DNA of 64,000 nt from a virus (IMGVR_UViG_3300020048_000007:1-64000), one strand, 5' to 3'. Counted from the first letter of the stretch, positions 1-64,000 are shown. Notes: a model not told the origin generated them from the letters alone. Made by a program: numbers and translations.

Positions 1-54
1 AGAACCAGAACCAGAACCAGAACCAGAACCAGAACCAGAACCAGAACCAGAACC
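1..54 (+). repeat. Hexamer tandem repeat (AGAACC)x9 encoding a Pro-Glu tract
   Basis: Directly visible; truncated by the window edge. Confidence 0.95.
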
Positions 55-172
55 ACAGGTGCAAGCAGTAGAAGATCATAGCTTGGCGACAGAGGCTCTT
101 GCCAAATCAGTAGTTGAAGGATATACTGAGCAAAATGACAAAAAGAAGCCCCGACCACCTAAGAAAAAGTAA
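2..172 (+). CDS. 3' end of a Pro/Glu-rich protein (partial, runs off the window start)
   Basis: Frame 2 reads (EP)n-QVQAVEDHSLATEALAKSVVEGYTEQNDKKKPRPPKKK and stops at TAA 170-172. Confidence 0.7.
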   Translation, partial: EPEPEPEPEPEPEPEPEPQVQAVEDHSLATEALAKSVVEGYTEQNDKKKPRPPKKK

Positions 173-224
173 ATTAGACTAGACCCAAATTACCAAGACT
201 ACCGAGAAAGAAAAAGAGGTATAA

Positions 225-647
225 ATGGCGCTCACGATCTCAAACGCACTCCGAACAGCCGCCTGCAACGCAATAACCGCTCTAGTCGACGCAGGAACAC
301 TGAATCCAAACGGTTACGTTAACATATACACAGCACCAAGGCCATCAGGCCCAACAGCCGCACCGACACCCGCAACCAGACTGGCCACCGTACCCCTGTC
401 TAACCCAGCATTTACCCAAGCCACAGATGGCGAAGCGGTAGCAAACGCAATGGGCCTAACCGGTATACCAGTAGAAGGAACTGGCACAGCGGCATGGTAC
501 AGGGTCTTCAACCGAGACAATATCGCATTATGGGACGGATCAGTTACCCTGTCTGGTGCCGGGGGCGATATGCAATTCAACGATATAGCATTCGTGCTAA
601 ACGGGCGAGTGGTCTTAAACAGCTTTAAAGCAGTGATGCCTCAATAA
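225..647 (+). CDS. Putative virion structural (tail-associated) protein, 140 aa
   Basis: GAGG SD upstream. The pattern ISNALRTAACNAITALVDAG...IYT.PRP...LAT..L..PAF...GTAAWYR...DGSV resembles small phage tail-associated proteins. Confidence 0.6.
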   Translation: MALTISNALRTAACNAITALVDAGTLNPNGYVNIYTAPRPSGPTAAPTPATRLATVPLSNPAFTQATDGEAVANAMGLTGIPVEGTGTAAWYRVFNRDNIALWDGSVTLSGAGGDMQFNDIAFVLNGRVVLNSFKAVMPQ

Positions 648-60706: not shown

Positions 60707-60710
60707 GAGA

Positions 60711-62564
60711 TCAACCAGAGAATGTGGTTGCGAAAGTAGTATTATAACCACACTCGACCTGCTTCCAGAGAGACCCACCAGCAAGCGTCTGAATCGGTGA
60801 TGACCTCCTAATTACAGTGTTATCACCAAGCTGGCCAACGCCATTAAAACCCCACACCCACAATGTTCCATCATTCTTTACTGCGGCAGTGTGTTTATAT
60901 CCACACGATACATATTTCCAATTAGTTCCACCAGCAACCGTCTGAACAGGCGAAGACCTATCATTTATAGTATTGTCTCCAAGCTGGCCATAAGCGTTTA
61001 AACCCCATAACCATAAAGAACCGTCGGTCTTTATGCCAGCCATATGGCTCGCTCCAGCAGACACTTTAAACCAATCCATACTCTTTGTAAAAACCTGAAC
61101 CGGTGATGATCTATTCGTGATGCTGTTATCGCCCAGTTGCCCCCAGATGTTATAACCCCATGTCCATAGAGAATAGTCAGTAGCGATAGCAGCAGAACTG
61201 TTGCTCACAGATACGTAGTTCCATCGTTTACCAGTGGTTGTGACTTGGATGGGAGAAGACTTACTGACGACCGTATTATCACCAAGCTGGCCATAAGCGT
61301 TACTACCCCAAAGCCATAAAGTATTATCATCTTTGATACCTGCAGAGGACAAGCTGCCACCTGTGGCTTGTATCCAATTAGCAGCAGTTCCCACTTGAAT
61401 TGGCGAGGACTTATTCACTGACGTATTATCACCAAGCTGGCCACTACTATTTAACCCCCATGTCCAAATAGTATTATCATTTTTAGCAGCCACAGCATGG
61501 GTAGACATAGAAAGATACTTCCAATTAGTTCCACCGGCAACAGTCTGAACTGGAGAAGATCTGTATATAGTCGAAGTGTTTTGTCCAAGCTCACCGGCAG
61601 TATTGTAACCCCATGTCCATAAAGTGCCGTCGGACTTAATACCGCCTGACCTATAAAAACTCCTTGCAGCTTGTTCCCAATTTCCGCCGAAATCCACTGT
61701 CTGAACCGGCGTAGATCTGTTAATTATAGAATTGTCACCTAGCTGGCCGTAATTATTCACCCCAAACACAAATAATTTGCTACCAACATACTGATCTATC
61801 AACCAAGCATCAGTAATGAAAAGATCATTTAATTTGGTACCACCAGCATAAAATGTGCTCTTGCCAGTTCCATATGAAAGCCAGCCGACTGTACCATGAG
61901 ACTTTGTTGTTGCAACAGCGACATCTGAGGTATTACTGGCACCAAAAAGACCCGTTCCGCTCCATTGCAAATCGTTACTAATAATGCCGGTGCCGTATGA
62001 GCCACCAGAATTTAAATTAATAGAAAACCCACCAACTGTATCCGTCACATTATTATTGAATTTCCAGTAATGAGATAATGTTGACGGGTATGGAGAGGTG
62101 AACTCTGTTGGGGCTCCACCATTGTAGATCGTGGTTAGGTTTACTGGGGTCGCATCAGTACCTTGATAAATCTGAACTTCATCAACCGAGTCATAGAAGC
62201 CGATTGTATTAAAGCTCCTAGCGCCCGCCCCACCAGCCCCAATCGCAGTAAACGCTCCAGCATTTACACTATACCTATATCTTGGATTCTGAGCTACGTC
62301 ATCAGCGCACCTTATCGCAAGCATATACCAAGTATCTGCAGTAGCGGCGCTAGCCGTTGTCGGGCCTAAAACAAGAGAACCATTCAAGCCATCCACTACC
62401 CAATTACCAGAGCTGTAGGAAAACGAGATCATGCAGTTAGTATTAGGTGGTGTATTGTCGTCCACCCCGTTATCCAGCTTAAACCCTGATTTAACTCCTA
62501 CTGAACTACGGTATTTGCACCAGGCCACTATCGTCCAGTCGCGCGCTGTTATAATTGCTGGCAT
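60711..62564 (-). CDS. LamG-like domain (apparently circularly permuted) + RCC1 beta-propeller protein, 617 aa
   Basis: WTIVAW...WYMLAI...VDEVQIY precedes LSHYWKFNNNVTDTVG; then seven RCC1 repeats. Confidence 0.8.
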   Translation of the reverse strand: MPAIITARDWTIVAWCKYRSSVGVKSGFKLDNGVDDNTPPNTNCMISFSYSSGNWVVDGLNGSLVLGPTTASAATADTWYMLAIRCADDVAQNPRYRYSVNAGAFTAIGAGGAGARSFNTIGFYDSVDEVQIYQGTDATPVNLTTIYNGGAPTEFTSPYPSTLSHYWKFNNNVTDTVGGFSINLNSGGSYGTGIISNDLQWSGTGLFGASNTSDVAVATTKSHGTVGWLSYGTGKSTFYAGGTKLNDLFITDAWLIDQYVGSKLFVFGVNNYGQLGDNSIINRSTPVQTVDFGGNWEQAARSFYRSGGIKSDGTLWTWGYNTAGELGQNTSTIYRSSPVQTVAGGTNWKYLSMSTHAVAAKNDNTIWTWGLNSSGQLGDNTSVNKSSPIQVGTAANWIQATGGSLSSAGIKDDNTLWLWGSNAYGQLGDNTVVSKSSPIQVTTTGKRWNYVSVSNSSAAIATDYSLWTWGYNIWGQLGDNSITNRSSPVQVFTKSMDWFKVSAGASHMAGIKTDGSLWLWGLNAYGQLGDNTINDRSSPVQTVAGGTNWKYVSCGYKHTAAVKNDGTLWVWGFNGVGQLGDNTVIRRSSPIQTLAGGSLWKQVECGYNTTFATTFSG

Positions 62565-62567
62565 TTA

Positions 62568-64000
62568 TCATTCTCCTATGAGCTTGTTGTATTTCTCTTC
62601 GAGCTCGTTGTATTTGACGCTTAATTCTTTTATGGCTTCCAAAAGTAAGCTAGCCATATTGCCGTAAGCCAGTGATTTAATACCATCGTGTTCTTTCACA
62701 AGATCTGGTAGCACTTTCTCAACCTCTTGCGCTATAAATCCTAAGCTATGGATACCGGTATCTTTCCAGTCAAATTCAACACCTCGTAGCTTGTTAACTT
62801 TTTCAAGAGCATCTTCAATTGTCGAGATATTTTCCTTTAATCTTTCGTCCGAGTTCGCGATGATATTACCACCAGCTGTGAAATCACCGGTCGCAGGGTT
62901 AAAAGTAAGCTTAGTCGATGAAACATTAGCTGTCGATACAGAACCAGTGGTGGCGTTTGTAAAAATCAGATATCGCGTGGCGGCGGTTGTTGTATCATCT
63001 GCAATTGTTAAGCCGCCTGTGATGTCCGTCAAGAATGCCACTGTCTGACGGGTAGTCGATGGTGTGAAAAAAAGCCTTGTTCCGTTGAATTCCATATTGC
63101 CAGCAGCTGCGGTCGTCATATTCGTGCCGCTGGTAAACCTCAAAGGTCCAGTGGTAGCGTTACCAGCAGCAAGATTGACCACTTTTGACGATAAAGTCTC
63201 AGTACCAGCTAGCGTCGCCAAAGTACCACTCGTCGGGAGAGTAACTGAAGTGATCCCGGTAGCAACAAATGTTCGAGCAAAAGCACCAGAGTGTGTGACG
63301 TTACCAGCCATTGTTAAGGTAAAGCCAGTATTCGCGATCCCTGTGCCGCCGTACTGACCGGGAATCACATTCCCGTTCCAGGTCGTGTTGGTCGACATGG
63401 TTTTATTTGTGAATGATTCGATGCCCGCCAGAGTCGCTAAAGTTCCAGTAGTGGGTAATGTGACCGATGTTGTACCGGTGGCTGTCAATGTACGGGCAAA
63501 CGCCCCAGCGTGAGAAACATTACCAGCCATCGTTAGAGTGAAGCCGGTATTTGCTATGCCAGTACCGCCATATTGACCGGGAATCACATTACCGTTCCAA
63601 GTAGTGTTGGTCGATAATGTTTTATTAGTAAAAGACTCTATGCCAGTTAAAGTAGCGAGAGTACCGGTAGTGGGAAGTGTTACACTAGTATTAGCCGTAG
63701 AGGTTAAGGTCGTAGTGAAAGCACCAGAAGTGGTTAGATTTCCTTCGAGTGACAATTTAGAAGGGTTTGCAGAAATAGCTAGAGTGCTAGTAGAAGAAAT
63801 AGCCGCTGATACCCATTTATAACCTCCAGCTATCGTCTGGACTGGCGAAGATTTGCTAACTGTAGTGTTATCACCAAGCTGCCCGGAGGTGTTTATGCCC
63901 CATGCCCATAATGTCCCATCAGACTCTATCGCTATAGTCGATTTTCCACCCATGAACACACCAGACCAAGATCCTCTGATTATCGTCTGTACAGGTGAAG
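62568..64000 (-). CDS. Tail fibre (partial; 5' end beyond the window): RCC1 repeats + Thr/Gly fibre repeats + C-terminal S74 intramolecular chaperone
   Basis: The frame is open to the window edge (SPVQTIIRGSWSGVFM); SDERLKENISTIEDALEKVNKLRGVEFDWK...GFIAQEVEKVLPDLV plus a terminal coiled coil. Confidence 0.88.
   Translation of the reverse strand, partial: SPVQTIIRGSWSGVFMGGKSTIAIESDGTLWAWGINTSGQLGDNTTVSKSSPVQTIAGGYKWVSAAISSTSTLAISANPSKLSLEGNLTTSGAFTTTLTSTANTSVTLPTTGTLATLTGIESFTNKTLSTNTTWNGNVIPGQYGGTGIANTGFTLTMAGNVSHAGAFARTLTATGTTSVTLPTTGTLATLAGIESFTNKTMSTNTTWNGNVIPGQYGGTGIANTGFTLTMAGNVTHSGAFARTFVATGITSVTLPTSGTLATLAGTETLSSKVVNLAAGNATTGPLRFTSGTNMTTAAAGNMEFNGTRLFFTPSTTRQTVAFLTDITGGLTIADDTTTAATRYLIFTNATTGSVSTANVSSTKLTFNPATGDFTAGGNIIANSDERLKENISTIEDALEKVNKLRGVEFDWKDTGIHSLGFIAQEVEKVLPDLVKEHDGIKSLAYGNMASLLLEAIKELSVKYNELEEKYNKLIGE
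63190..63750 (-). repeat. 219-bp (73-aa) internal repeat, about 2.5 copies
   Basis: CCGGGAATCACATT occurs at 63358 and 63577 (219 nt apart); unit NGNVIPGQYGGTGIANTGFTLTMAGNV...TSVTLPTTGTLATL.GIESFTNKT.STNTTW. Confidence 0.9.

What the first reader, a model, noticed from the sequence alone, without database searches (positions are those of the whole stretch)
1..64000. Sawtooth A+C / G+T strand skew that ignores gene orientation and flips at promoter-motif sites
Seen: the plus strand repeatedly jumps from G+T-rich to A+C-rich and then drifts back over 2-8 kb. Apparent jumps are near 4720, 11090, 14050, 15920, 19650, 24560, 32560, 39420, 41350, 47260, 49940, 55785 and 60700. Hand counts over single 60-nt lines: A+C = 21/60 at 13741 versus 41/60 at 14161 (both minus-strand genes); 40/60 at 52141 versus 18/60 at 55261 (same minus-strand operon). 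The drift passes smoothly through convergent junctions (12342/12364, 21969/22063, 40905/40912, 45195/45198), so it is not simply coding-strand or codon bias. Most jumps coincide with the AAAT(A/C)TAT motif. Inference: a bidirectional, strand-asymmetric process starts or stops at these sites, for example many transcription-primed replication origins (compare T4 R-loop origins), fork barriers, or localised ssDNA exposure and editing. A factory-roof profile at this small scale is unexpected in a phage genome.
Basis: partly seen in the sequence, partly recalled or inferred. Interest (0 to 1): 0.8.

Follow-up and report, generated by a model that had tools for sequence, protein, structure and literature searches.

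The report
Promoter-anchored keto/amino skew sawtooth in phage
In this uncultured freshwater jumbo phage, silent codon positions swing every few kilobases between A/C-rich and G/T-rich on the same DNA strand whichever way the genes point, jumping back at gene starts; relatives keep the same pattern, recent mutations do not explain it, and it looks like the trace of an undescribed strand-biased repair or recombination process.

Summary
Plus-strand A+C at third codon positions ranges from 0.12 to 0.85 (window sd 0.13; about 0.05 under synonymous shuffling). All four hand counts are exact, and 11 of the 13 listed jumps have z>=3.

The axis is almost purely keto versus amino, independent of neighbouring bases, and the same whether the G+T-rich strand is coding or template. 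Sharp rises sit at gene starts (16 of 25 within 150 nt; 27% expected). Falls lie inside genes. The AAAT(A/C)TA motif explains only some of the rises.

The profile is conserved bin for bin in a relative with saturated silent sites (r=0.84). It is weak or absent in three other relatives, in T4 and in the Z-phage phiVC8.

New evidence: outgroup-polarised recent changes in three strains show no bias toward keto bases (22 amino-to-keto against 70 keto-to-amino; per-site ratio 0.74, where about 2.3 is needed). Divergence is not raised in skewed regions.

An active mutagenic process, such as many replication origins, is therefore disfavoured. My best reading (about 0.3) is strand-directed biased mismatch correction (gene conversion) spreading from promoter-proximal sites. 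Selection, or a decaying mutational relic, remain open.

The scan has noted similar sawtooths in other windows of this genome and in other genomes. The nearest published case is GRINS (2021).

The parts
1..64000 (.). Strand-fixed keto/amino (G+T vs A+C) compositional field at silent sites. It continues over the whole 231,672-bp record.
   Evidence: third-position A+C runs 0.12-0.85; window sd 0.13 against 0.05 after shuffling; AT- and CG-skew at third positions correlate at r=0.61.
4652..4756 (.). Up-step at the divergent gap 4709-4755; motif AAATATAT on the - strand at 4718.
   Evidence: L 0.49-0.53, R 0.75, z 3.1-3.7.
10969..11100 (.). Up-step at the start region of the 9776-11070 (-) gene pair. 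Motif at 11090 (-) and the 16-nt element ATATA-NN-GAAATAAGG at 11080 (-).
   Evidence: L 0.21-0.31, R 0.52-0.56, z 3.5-4.4.
13885..14133 (.). Up-step at the co-oriented gap 14035-14132 (- genes); 7-mer motif at 14047.
   Evidence: z 2.3-3.7.
15861..15993 (.). Up-step at the co-oriented gap 15885-15993, which holds the hairpin GGGCTG-ACTTAG-CAGCCC and GAATATATAAG upstream of the 583-aa gene. It is also a mosaic breakpoint: strain L022 becomes non-homologous here.
   Evidence: L 0.23-0.27, R 0.60, z 4.7-5.7.
19629..19711 (.). Up-step at the divergent gap 19629-19702.
   Evidence: L 0.41, R 0.66, z 3.3-3.5.
24466..24577 (.). Strongest up-step of the window, at the co-oriented gap 24541-24576. Motif CAAATCTAT (-) at 24563, followed by GGAG and the start codon. 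The step is conserved in L002, L007 and L021.
   Evidence: L 0.24-0.29, R 0.80, z 7-9. In the orthologous upstream gene, coding-strand third-position A+C falls from 0.64-0.68 at the 5' end to 0.09-0.20 at the 3' end in four lineages.
27244..27280 (.). Smaller up-step at the start of the 350-aa gene (overlapping junction).
   Evidence: L 0.38, R 0.64, z 3.7.
32533..32590 (.). Up-step inside ORF 31174-33165 (-), 20 nt from a 7-mer motif at 32583 (-).
   Evidence: L 0.37, R 0.80, z 5.4-6.1.
39288..39443 (.). Up-step at the divergent gap 39333-39442.
   Evidence: L 0.57-0.60, R 0.81-0.82, z 3.0-3.5.
41289..41691 (.). Up-step at the divergent gap, which holds the palindromic AAAATATATTTT at 41351.
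   Evidence: L 0.43, R 0.87-0.90, z 6.1-8.5.
47248..47373 (.). Up-step near the start of gene 46771-47373 (-).
   Evidence: L 0.28-0.30, R 0.59, z 4.1-4.4.
49910..49950 (.). Weak up-step at the co-oriented gap 49910-49940; motif AAATATAT (+) at 49943.
   Evidence: L 0.61, R 0.80, z 2.7.
55767..55806 (.). Up-step at the gapless junction 55784/55785 (- genes).
   Evidence: L 0.17, R 0.52-0.56, z 4.9-6.2.
58086..58121 (.). Up-step at the start of gene 55785-58106 (-).
   Evidence: L 0.29, R 0.67, z 5.4.
60653..60711 (.). Up-step at the co-oriented gap 60674-60710; motif CAAATCTATAAT (-) at 60699.
   Evidence: L 0.29-0.32, R 0.69-0.70, z 5.2-6.5.
22063..26205 (-). Two model 'teeth': the 825-aa and 542-aa genes. 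Each runs from A+C-rich at its 5' end to G+T-rich at its 3' end on the coding strand.
   Evidence: slopes z -5.9 and -7.0; orthologous profile correlates at r=0.84 with L007.

Best explanation
The pattern is a strand-fixed field of keto (G,T) versus amino (A,C) enrichment, written mainly into silent sites. It flips sign abruptly at a subset of transcription-unit starts and fades over about 1 kb to several kb.

I think it most likely records a strand-directed fixation bias rather than mutagenesis. In outline:
1. Recombination between co-infecting, slightly diverged genomes starts at promoter-proximal breaks or ends.
2. The 3'-ended strand is the top strand on one side of such a site and the bottom strand on the other.
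3. In the resulting heteroduplex, any keto/amino difference appears as a keto.keto mispair (G.T, T.T, G.G) or an amino.amino mispair (A.C, A.A, C.C), depending on which base the invading strand carries.
4. If end-directed correction handles these two classes with unequal efficiency, one class of allele is preferentially kept on the invading strand.

This would give a pure keto/amino skew of opposite sign on the two sides of the site, decaying with tract length.

Shown here: the anatomy of the field, its anchoring at gene starts, its purity and independence from neighbouring bases, its conservation with amplitude that varies by lineage, and the absence of a present mutational bias.

Inferred: that recombination starts at these sites, and that mismatch correction is the biased step.
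For: 1. Recent silent changes, polarised with an outgroup strain, run 22 amino-to-keto against 70 keto-to-amino on the keto-rich strand. The per-site ratio is 0.74 (95% CI 0.46-1.19), while the composition needs 2.3-3.0. Balanced flux is rejected (p=5e-7) and equal per-site rates are not (p=0.25). The result holds when regions are defined on the outgroup (14 against 37; ratio 0.94, CI 0.51-1.74). This is the signature of a fixation bias, or of a relic.
2. Silent divergence is flat to slightly lower in the most skewed regions (25.2% to 22.0%). An added mutational process should raise it.
3. The axis is purely keto versus amino. Odds ratios are T/C 2.18, G/A 2.56, T/A 2.73 and G/C 2.05. Within classes they are G/T 0.94 and A/C 0.80. 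The shift is the same in every neighbouring-base context and the same for coding and template strands. The mispair-class logic predicts exactly this. A transition-only deamination model predicts the opposite ordering of T/A against T/C and of G/C against G/A (my own calculation).
4. Codon positions 1 and 2 shift the same way but 5-10 times less, as expected for a pressure acting on nucleotides.
5. Continuity holds across oppositely oriented neighbours.
6. Jumps are largest where promoters are: divergent +0.15 to +0.19, motif-bearing gaps +0.12 to +0.20, convergent about 0. One in-ORF jump lies 47 nt after a 16-nt element that otherwise occurs only upstream of an operon start.
7. The profile is conserved at r=0.84 with L007, although identity at four-fold sites is only 0.38. 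The amplitude is strong in L002, L007 and L021, weak in L003, and absent in L005 and L020.
8. Co-occurring strains are mosaic. Divergence ranges from 0.8% to 3.9% within one strain. A module breakpoint sits exactly at jump 15920. Patches of low divergence sit at or next to jumps 24560, 27260 and 19650.
9. The only published analogue, GRINS, is associated with gene conversion (PMC8256042).
10. An SbcD/Mre11-like nuclease, a DNA ligase and a RarA-like ATPase are encoded in this genome.
Against: - There is no direct evidence that recombination starts at these sites, and no mismatch-correcting enzyme with the required preference has been identified.
- The polarised spectrum rests on 51-92 changes in one 13-20 kb region and three terminal branches.
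- That spectrum is equally expected if a mutational driver was recently lost in this clade. The amplitude here is about 70% of that in L002, L007 and L021, and losses are evidently common: three of seven lineages.
- Selection on the composition of one strand or of the transcript would give the same spectrum.
- T4 recombines intensely yet shows no skew.
- Across all co-oriented junctions, an A+C-rich gene start is usually preceded by an A+C-rich upstream gene end (r=0.63). The two-sided flip is therefore a property of a minority of sites.
- The low-divergence patches at jumps could simply reflect constraint on gene starts.
Confidence: 0.3

Rival explanations
1. Selection on base composition of the transcript, or of single-stranded DNA. 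Transcription units are kept A+C-rich (unable to self-pair) near their 5' ends and G+U-rich toward their 3' ends. By symmetry this gives the same plus-strand sawtooth for both gene orientations.
For: - The recent-change spectrum fits a fixation bias.
- Rises are anchored at gene starts and promoter-like motifs.
- The coding strand falls 5'->3' in 91 of 128 genes.
- The profile is conserved despite saturated silent sites.
- A 3' drop also occurs in genes that end at convergent junctions (-0.069).
Against: - G+T-rich coding stretches are as common as A+C-rich ones and have mirror-image composition.
- At divergent junctions the two 5' ends co-vary on the plus strand (r=0.71-0.80). One of the two mRNAs is therefore often G+U-rich at its 5' end.
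- Syntenic relatives with the same gene order lack the pattern (L005, L020).
- There is no selected pairing between the G+U-rich upstream segment and the A+C-rich downstream segment (mean z -0.14 over 9 junctions).
- Highly expressed late genes (portal, baseplate) are G+T-rich, whereas ligase and SbcD are A+C-rich. There is thus no simple link to expression level.
Confidence: 0.2
2. One reading: many promoter-primed replication origins (or fixed fork barriers). Fork direction flips every few kb, and a difference in errors between leading and lagging strands writes the skew. The process is either still active or now a relic.
For: - An orientation-independent keto/amino skew that also shifts codon positions 1 and 2 is the classical hallmark of replication asymmetry (own knowledge, e.g. 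Borrelia).
- The shape is sharp rises with gradual falls.
- Anchoring at promoters fits transcription-primed initiation.
- Earlier, unverified notes say the genome carries several polymerases, which could give unequal error spectra on the two strands.
- A purely keto/amino axis is also expected from a mispair-class error bias.
Against: - There is no present keto-ward mutation bias on terminal branches, and divergence is not raised in skewed regions.
- The sharp jump goes toward A+C, opposite to every classical origin.
- The mean profile around jumps is a cusp of about 1 kb plus only a small persistent step.
- More than 25-40 initiation sites would be needed in 231 kb.
- T4 shows nothing comparable.
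- Cumulative skew rises monotonically with no V shape.
- Earlier scan notes report similar sawtooths in cellular genomes that have a single origin (unverified).
Confidence: 0.15
3. Transcription-associated mutation or repair asymmetry, spreading from (partly bidirectional) promoters, as at vertebrate transcription start sites.
For: - Jumps sit at gene starts and at near-palindromic AT-rich motifs such as AAAATATATTTT.
- Motif-bearing co-oriented junctions deviate on both sides.
- The decay over about 1 kb resembles the 5'-proximal asymmetry of human genes (own knowledge: Polak & Arndt 2008).
Against: - At 5' ends the non-template strand is A+C-rich, opposite to the known transcription-associated bias.
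- The sign reverses within transcription units.
- There is no present mutational bias.
- Relatives with the same intergenic architecture lack the pattern.
- T4, which has dense promoters, lacks it.
Confidence: 0.12
4. Damage or enzymatic editing of exposed single-stranded DNA (resected 3' tails, R-loops, deaminases). C>T and A>G changes would accumulate on the exposed strand.
For: - Under standard deamination logic, the sign fits 5'->3' resection from breaks at the jumps (own inference).
- The kilobase decay length fits as well.
Against: - The shift does not depend on neighbouring bases.
- The transversion classes T/A and G/C shift as much as the transitions, and pyrimidine content changes.
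- There is no present bias in C>T against T>C (rate ratio 0.91) or in A>G against G>A (0.47).
- Divergence is not raised.
Confidence: 0.04
5. Artefact of amino-acid composition, translational codon selection, or assembly.
For: None beyond the general fact that codon usage varies among genes.
Against: - The signal is strongest at silent sites and survives shuffles that preserve amino-acid sequence.
- It is the same for coding and template strands.
- It is present in independent assemblies from other samples.
Confidence: 0.01

Closest known systems
[quoted passage not shown]
   Same: Both show intense, correlated GC and TA skews (G+T against C+A) that change sign abruptly inside genes. Both signs occur on one strand. 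The skews are strongest at third codon positions and visibly affect amino-acid use. GRINS are associated with gene conversion, and their mechanism is unknown.
   Different: GRINS are defined as duplicated regions (>80% identical copies within one PKS cluster) in bacterial assembly-line genes. Here there are no such repeats (0 hits of >=500 bp at >=80% identity). The pattern here is genome-wide in a phage, has a sawtooth shape, and is anchored at gene starts.
Replication-associated strand asymmetry and human 'factory-roof' skew domains (Touchon 2005 and Huvet 2007, cited from my own knowledge)
   Same: Both are orientation-independent keto/amino asymmetries at silent sites, with sharp jumps separated by gradual drifts.
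   Different: Here the sharp jump goes toward A+C, not G+T. The scale is 1-8 kb, not 0.1-1 Mb. Recent changes show no mutational bias. No origins are known.
Transcription-associated strand asymmetry around transcription start sites (Polak & Arndt 2008; Polak et al. 2010; cited from my own knowledge)
   Same: Both are anchored at promoters, decay over about 1-2 kb, and have a mirrored signal upstream.
   Different: The sign is opposite (the non-template strand is A+C-rich here). The sign reverses within transcription units. The amplitude is far larger. The pattern is absent in close syntenic relatives.
GC-biased gene conversion landscapes around stable promoter hotspots in yeast and birds, and gene-conversion polarity gradients (own knowledge)
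   Same: Both are fixation biases, not mutation biases. Both decay with distance from promoter-proximal initiation sites, are conserved over long times where hotspots are stable, and affect all codon positions.
   Different: Known biased gene conversion favours G:C pairs symmetrically on both strands. Here the favoured class is keto on one strand and amino on the other, so the bias would have to depend on which strand carries the end. To my knowledge this has not been described.

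Membership tests
GRINS | Stretch >500 bp with mean |GC skew| and mean |TA skew| both above 0.15, and the two skews correlated. 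| tested here: met
   16% of 500-bp stretches pass both thresholds. The two skews correlate at r=0.23 over all positions and r=0.61 at third positions.
GRINS | Region duplicated at >80% identity elsewhere in the same cluster or genome. | tested here: not met
   self-BLAST of the 231-kb record finds 0 non-self hits of >=500 bp at >=80% identity. The only hits are about 75% tandem repeats inside giant fibre-like ORFs.
GRINS | Skew strongest at third codon positions, with both signs on one strand inside genes. | tested here: met
Replication-origin skew switch (factory roof) | Orientation-independent asymmetry at silent sites along the keto/amino axis. | tested here: met
Replication-origin skew switch (factory roof) | The abrupt switch goes from A+C-rich to G+T-rich, read 5'->3' (leading strand keto-rich). 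| tested here: not met
   abrupt steps go from G+T-rich to A+C-rich. The opposite transitions are gradual and lie inside genes.
Replication-origin skew switch (factory roof) | Skew maintained by a strand-asymmetric mutation rate. | tested here: not met
   per-site amino-to-keto / keto-to-amino ratio is 0.74-0.94, where 2.3-3.0 is needed; divergence is not raised. One region and three strains only.
Replication-origin skew switch (factory roof) | Independent evidence of initiation at the switch sites. | not testable with these tools
   Only assembled contigs were available for the sequencing runs. There are no nascent-strand or read-end data.
Transcription-associated strand asymmetry | Anchored at transcription starts. 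| tested here: inconclusive
   16 of 25 up-steps lie within 150 nt of a gene start. Upstream motifs are enriched 12-17-fold. No TSS data exist.
Transcription-associated strand asymmetry | One sign relative to the transcribed strand along the unit, with the non-template strand G+T-rich. | tested here: not met
   the coding strand is A+C-rich at 5' ends and G+T-rich at 3' ends. The mean coding-strand third-position A+C is 0.49-0.50.
ssDNA deaminase editing (APOBEC-like) | Preference for particular neighbouring bases, and restriction to C>T (or A>G). | tested here: not met
   odds ratios of 1.5-3.7 in all neighbouring-base contexts. T/A and G/C shift as much as T/C and G/A.
Translational codon-usage selection | Bias defined on the coding strand and confined to synonymous choice. 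| tested here: not met
   the odds are the same when the G+T-rich strand is the template; positions 1 and 2 shift in the same direction.
Biased gene conversion (fixation bias) | Recent or rare variants reflect unbiased mutation, while composition is skewed. | tested here: met
   Selection, or a decaying relic, would also meet this feature.
Biased gene conversion (fixation bias) | Bias strength follows local recombination initiation. | tested here: inconclusive
   one mosaic breakpoint and three low-divergence patches lie at or next to jumps. This is too few for a test.

The most novel reading that the evidence does not exclude
A new evolutionary force may be at work: strand-asymmetric, keto/amino-biased gene conversion spreading from conserved promoter-proximal recombination start sites. 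If so, the silent sites of this phage are a readable fossil map of where recombination (or recombination-dependent replication) begins. GRINS in bacteria, and the operon-scale sawtooths this scan has noted in other prokaryotic genomes, would then be the same process switched on or off by lineage-specific repair enzymes.
Probability: 0.25. Interest if true: 0.9.

Novelty: new variant of a known kind. Interest (0 to 1): 0.7.

Why it matters
Silent sites in this phage carry a strong, conserved, position-specific signal. Neither codon selection, nor classical replication skew, nor known transcription-associated mutation explains it.

If the signal is a fixation bias tied to recombination, several things follow:
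- It would add a strand-asymmetric counterpart to GC-biased gene conversion.
- It would explain GRINS-like skews.
- It would let recombination or replication start sites be read directly from sequence in uncultured phages.
- It would warn that codon-usage, dS and host-prediction methods are confounded in such genomes.

The on/off distribution among syntenic relatives offers a natural experiment for finding the responsible enzyme.

Tried and rejected
- **Close relatives.** Single-protein searches for close relatives found nothing: megablast and tblastn against phages, and two scans of viral contigs. Relatives were reached only through the search for homologous proteins and contig look-ups. Several of those contigs had no DNA available.
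- **Sequencing runs.** Read laying on four metagenome runs returned assembled contigs only. No read-end pile-ups could be examined (so no test for fixed breaks or nicks), and only 40 of 970 variant rows were shown. I rebuilt the strain test from contigs instead.
- **First polarisation attempt.** Simple singleton polarisation without an outgroup gave an intermediate result (177 against 259). I discarded it because it included the unpolarisable long branch of L023.
- **Function of the genes.** PHROG and Pfam searches gave no function for most window proteins. There was no clear link between skew and function or expression class.
- **Z-base as sole cause.** The PurZ gene of this genome matches Z-phage PurZ at 32-40% identity. 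However, the Z-phage phiVC8 shows no skew heterogeneity.
- **RNA pairing across jumps.** No specific pairing was found across jumps (mean z -0.14). An earlier cofold version of this test timed out.
- **Linear sawtooth.** A piecewise-linear sawtooth fits no better than a piecewise-constant model.
- **Universal antisymmetry.** A universal sign flip at every A+C-rich gene start was rejected.
- **Literature.** Searches for a described keto/amino sawtooth in phages found none. GRINS was found.

Full report
**Context.** The window is the first 64 kb of a 231,672-bp IMG/VR virus record (CheckV completeness 64%, GC about 43%). It is a jumbo phage from freshwater metagenomes. Coding density is 95% under the standard genetic code, and about 70% of codons lie on the minus strand. 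I laid the whole record in the Python box and called genes crudely by greedy longest-ORF choice. Of 230 calls, 189 passed a frame test based on codon positions 1 and 2 only.

- Third-position A+C in 100-codon windows runs from 0.12 to 0.85.
- Shuffles that keep the amino-acid sequence put the chance level far lower. The window sd is 0.134 observed against 0.051 (genome-wide synonymous shuffle). The within-gene window sd is 0.094 against 0.044 (within-gene shuffle). Forty genes decline 5'->3' at z<-2, against a mean of 4 in shuffles.
- Keto/amino is the dominant axis of silent-site heterogeneity: sd 0.13, against 0.07 for purine content and 0.06 for GC3. AT- and CG-skews co-vary at r=0.61.
- Two-fold degenerate sites swing as much as four-fold sites.
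- The 'would refute' condition that the pattern vanishes at synonymous sites therefore fails clearly.

**Shape.**
- The sawtooth asymmetry is significant (first-difference skewness +0.45, p=8e-5). Of 48 fitted segments 31 fall, and jumps are 34 up against 13 down. However, a piecewise-constant model does as well as the piecewise-linear one.
- The clearest asymmetry is in location. Of 25 objective up-steps, 18 lie within 150 nt of a gene boundary and 16 within 150 nt of a gene start (34% and 27% at random). Only 2 of 15 down-steps lie near a gene boundary.
- Averaged over 37 up-steps, the profile is a two-sided cusp: about 0.36 just left of the step, about 0.68 just right, decaying over about 1 kb. 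A small persistent offset remains for more than 3 kb.
- Jumps also occur inside ORFs: at 32,560 in the window, and at about 220,042 and 224,851 in a 4,606-aa ORF.
- The 224,851 jump lies 47 nt after ATATACGGAAATAAGG. The pattern ATATA-NN-GAAATAAGG occurs only twice in the record. The other copy sits upstream of the operon start at 11,080. The in-ORF jump is therefore probably also at a promoter-like element.

**Motif.** TAAATATA and AAATATA are enriched 12-17-fold upstream of genes. They resemble the T4 late promoter TATAAATA (own knowledge).
- Intergenic motif hits have a mean step of +0.18 to +0.20. All gene starts average +0.068, and motif copies inside genes about 0.
- At co-oriented junctions chosen by motif alone (n=14), there is a dip of -0.10 upstream and a rise of +0.08 downstream.
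- Only 7 of 25 objective up-steps have the motif within 150 nt.
- The association is therefore real but partial. Gene starts are the better predictor.

**Orientation independence.** A coding-strand gradient from A+C-rich (5') to G+T-rich (3') produces the same plus-strand sawtooth for genes on either strand, so much of 'ignores orientation' follows from symmetry. Within genes the coding strand does fall 5'->3' in 91 of 128 genes. Independent evidence for a strand-fixed field is as follows.
- At convergent junctions the two flanks agree on the plus strand (r=0.71, n=21; r=0.51 for 12 strictly filtered; mean jump about -0.02).
- At divergent junctions they also co-vary (r=0.71-0.80), with a jump of +0.15 to +0.19.
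- Composition in the G+T-rich and A+C-rich states is close to mirror-image.
- The odds shifts are the same whether the G+T-rich strand is coding or template.
- The plus strand is A-rich at third positions in genes of both orientations throughout the record, and the cumulative skew has no V shape.

**Nature of the bias.**
- On the G+T-rich strand, relative to unskewed regions, the odds ratios are T/C 2.18, G/A 2.56, T/A 2.73 and G/C 2.05. Within classes they are G/T 0.94 and A/C 0.80.
- They are similar in every 5' and 3' neighbouring-base context. This rules out a deaminase that depends on neighbouring bases.
- A transition-only (deamination) equilibrium in an AT-rich genome would give OR(T/A) below OR(T/C) and OR(G/C) above OR(G/A). 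The opposite is seen (own calculation).
- Codon positions 1 and 2 move in the same direction, 5-10 times less.
- My inference is as follows. Any keto/amino difference forms a keto.keto mispair when the strand in question carries the keto base, and an amino.amino mispair when it carries the amino base. A strand-directed process that makes or corrects these two classes unequally therefore yields exactly such a pure axis (note).

**Comparators and relatives.**
- T4 (85 kb sampled) and the Z-genome phage phiVC8 show near-binomial third-position A+C (sd 0.057-0.070). At most one of their genes has a 5'->3' gradient (z<-2).
- A window protein has homologues at 28-75% identity on syntenic metagenome contigs.
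- The sawtooth recurs at orthologous positions in L002 (75% aa identity; sd 0.20), L021 (39%; 0.215) and L007 (38%; 0.16).
- It is weak in L003 (48%; 0.089) and absent in L005 (47%; 0.068) and L020 (28%; 0.065).
- The binned profile over 11 orthologous genes correlates at r=0.84 (p=5e-10) between the window and L007, although identity at four-fold sites is only 0.38.
- The pattern is thus maintained position by position over saturating divergence, with a 'gain' that differs among lineages.

**Mutation or fixation?** I aligned three strains (L022, L024, L023; 94%, 97% and 90% identical to the window) over window positions about 14-36 kb.
- With L023 as outgroup, silent changes on the three short branches in skewed regions run 22 amino-to-keto against 70 keto-to-amino on the keto-rich strand.
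- The per-site rate ratio is 0.74 (CI 0.46-1.19), while the keto/amino site ratio is 2.3-3.0. Balanced flux is rejected (p=5e-7); equal per-site rates are not (p=0.25).
- Defining the regions on the outgroup gives the same answer (14 against 37).
- Silent divergence is flat to slightly lower in the most skewed regions.
- A strand-asymmetric mutation process that is active now should give balanced flux and raised divergence. Neither is seen.
- Two readings remain. The skew may be held by a fixation bias (biased gene conversion or selection) that young variants have not yet felt. Or the driver may have been lost recently in this clade, so that the skew is decaying.
- The second reading is not excluded. 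The amplitude here is about 70% of that in L002, L007 and L021, and three of seven lineages have little or none. On the other hand, the four strains have equal amplitudes.

**Choosing among fixation biases.**
- Against selection on mRNA composition:
  - the two skewed states are mirror images;
  - co-variation at divergent junctions leaves one of the two mRNAs G+U-rich at its 5' end;
  - syntenic relatives lack the pattern;
  - there is no link to expression class (portal and baseplate are G+T-rich; ligase and SbcD are A+C-rich);
  - there is no selected pairing across jumps.
- In favour of a recombination-linked bias:
  - the mispair-class purity of the axis;
  - strain mosaicism;
  - a module breakpoint exactly at jump 15,920, and low-divergence patches at or next to jumps 24,560, 27,260 and 19,650 (too few for a test);
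  - encoded SbcD-like, ligase and RarA-like proteins;
  - the published association of GRINS with gene conversion.
- I therefore rank strand-directed biased mismatch correction from promoter-proximal initiation sites first (about 0.3). Next come selection (0.2), replication-polarity mutagenesis (0.15), transcription-associated asymmetry (0.12) and ssDNA damage or editing (0.04). The remainder is unknown.

**Relation to earlier scan notes.** These are AI notes used as leads only. Other windows of this genome were flagged for the same skew, and my whole-record analysis agrees with them. Similar sawtooths were noted in several other prokaryotic genomes, sometimes with reversed sign. One of those notes pointed me to the 2021 GRINS paper, which I read. 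This phage does not meet the GRINS repeat criterion.

**Verdict.** I classify the phenomenon as a new variant of known strand asymmetries. It is unusually strong, conserved, and can be tested with data that already exist in public metagenomes.

Noticed in passing
window 11080 (-) and genome 224804 (+) (L010:19805): The pattern ATATA-NN-GAAATAAGG occurs exactly twice in the 231-kb record. One copy lies upstream of the 9776-11070 gene pair. The other lies inside the 4606-aa ORF, 47 nt before an in-ORF skew jump. It is a candidate internal promoter.
   Followed up: partly
window 20528-21646 (+): By the Pfam marks on its close homologues, this 372-aa protein is a thymidylate-kinase + dUTPase fusion. 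L007 has the two as separate genes, while L003 and L005 have only the dUTPase here. The two lineages without the kinase at this place are the ones with weak or no skew (n=5, anecdotal).
   Followed up: no
window 45195-46373 (-): MgsA/RarA-like AAA+ ATPase (Pfam MgsA_C 2e-28, RuvB_N, AAA), a replication-associated recombination protein family.
   Followed up: no
window 55785-58106 (-) and 60711-62564 (-); genome 188363-190216 (-): Three large proteins with RCC1-like repeats (PHROG 'regulator of chromosome condensation'), lying in or near a tail-fibre-like operon.
   Followed up: no
window 22001-42000: Co-occurring strains are mosaic. One metagenome strain differs from the window by 0.76% over 22998-31541, but by 3.6-3.9% over 22001-23023 and 35115-35859. 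Another strain (L022) becomes non-homologous below about 16030, exactly at a skew jump.
   Followed up: partly
window 23800-24712, 27113-27412, 19331-19630, 28913-29212: Patches where divergence to the 10%-distant strain L023 drops to 2.7-5.7%. Three of the four lie at or next to skew jumps. They could be gene-conversion tracts, or constraint on gene starts.
   Followed up: no
genome 62568-69422 (-) (runs over the window end): A 2284-aa ORF with internal tandem repeats of 1.6-2 kb at about 75% identity. Genome 111452-113131 shows similar internal repeats.
   Followed up: no
whole record: The plus strand is A-rich at third positions in genes of both orientations (A 0.334/0.340 against T 0.255/0.255). 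Cumulative A+C minus G+T rises monotonically over 231 kb, so there is a global strand bias with no turning point inside the contig.
   Followed up: partly
genome 213650-214750 (+) (L010:8651-9751): A PurZ-like adenylosuccinate-synthetase homologue. It matches the PurZ genes of known 2-aminoadenine phages (phiVC8, ZP6, Acinetobacter phages) at 32-40% identity.
   Followed up: partly
window 15885-15993: Inverted repeat GGGCTG-ACTTAG-CAGCCC in the gap at a skew jump. A similar hairpin followed by a T-run (CCAGTCT-CAG-AGACTGG-TTTT, on the plus strand) lies just upstream of the minus-strand gene start at genome 126246.
   Followed up: no
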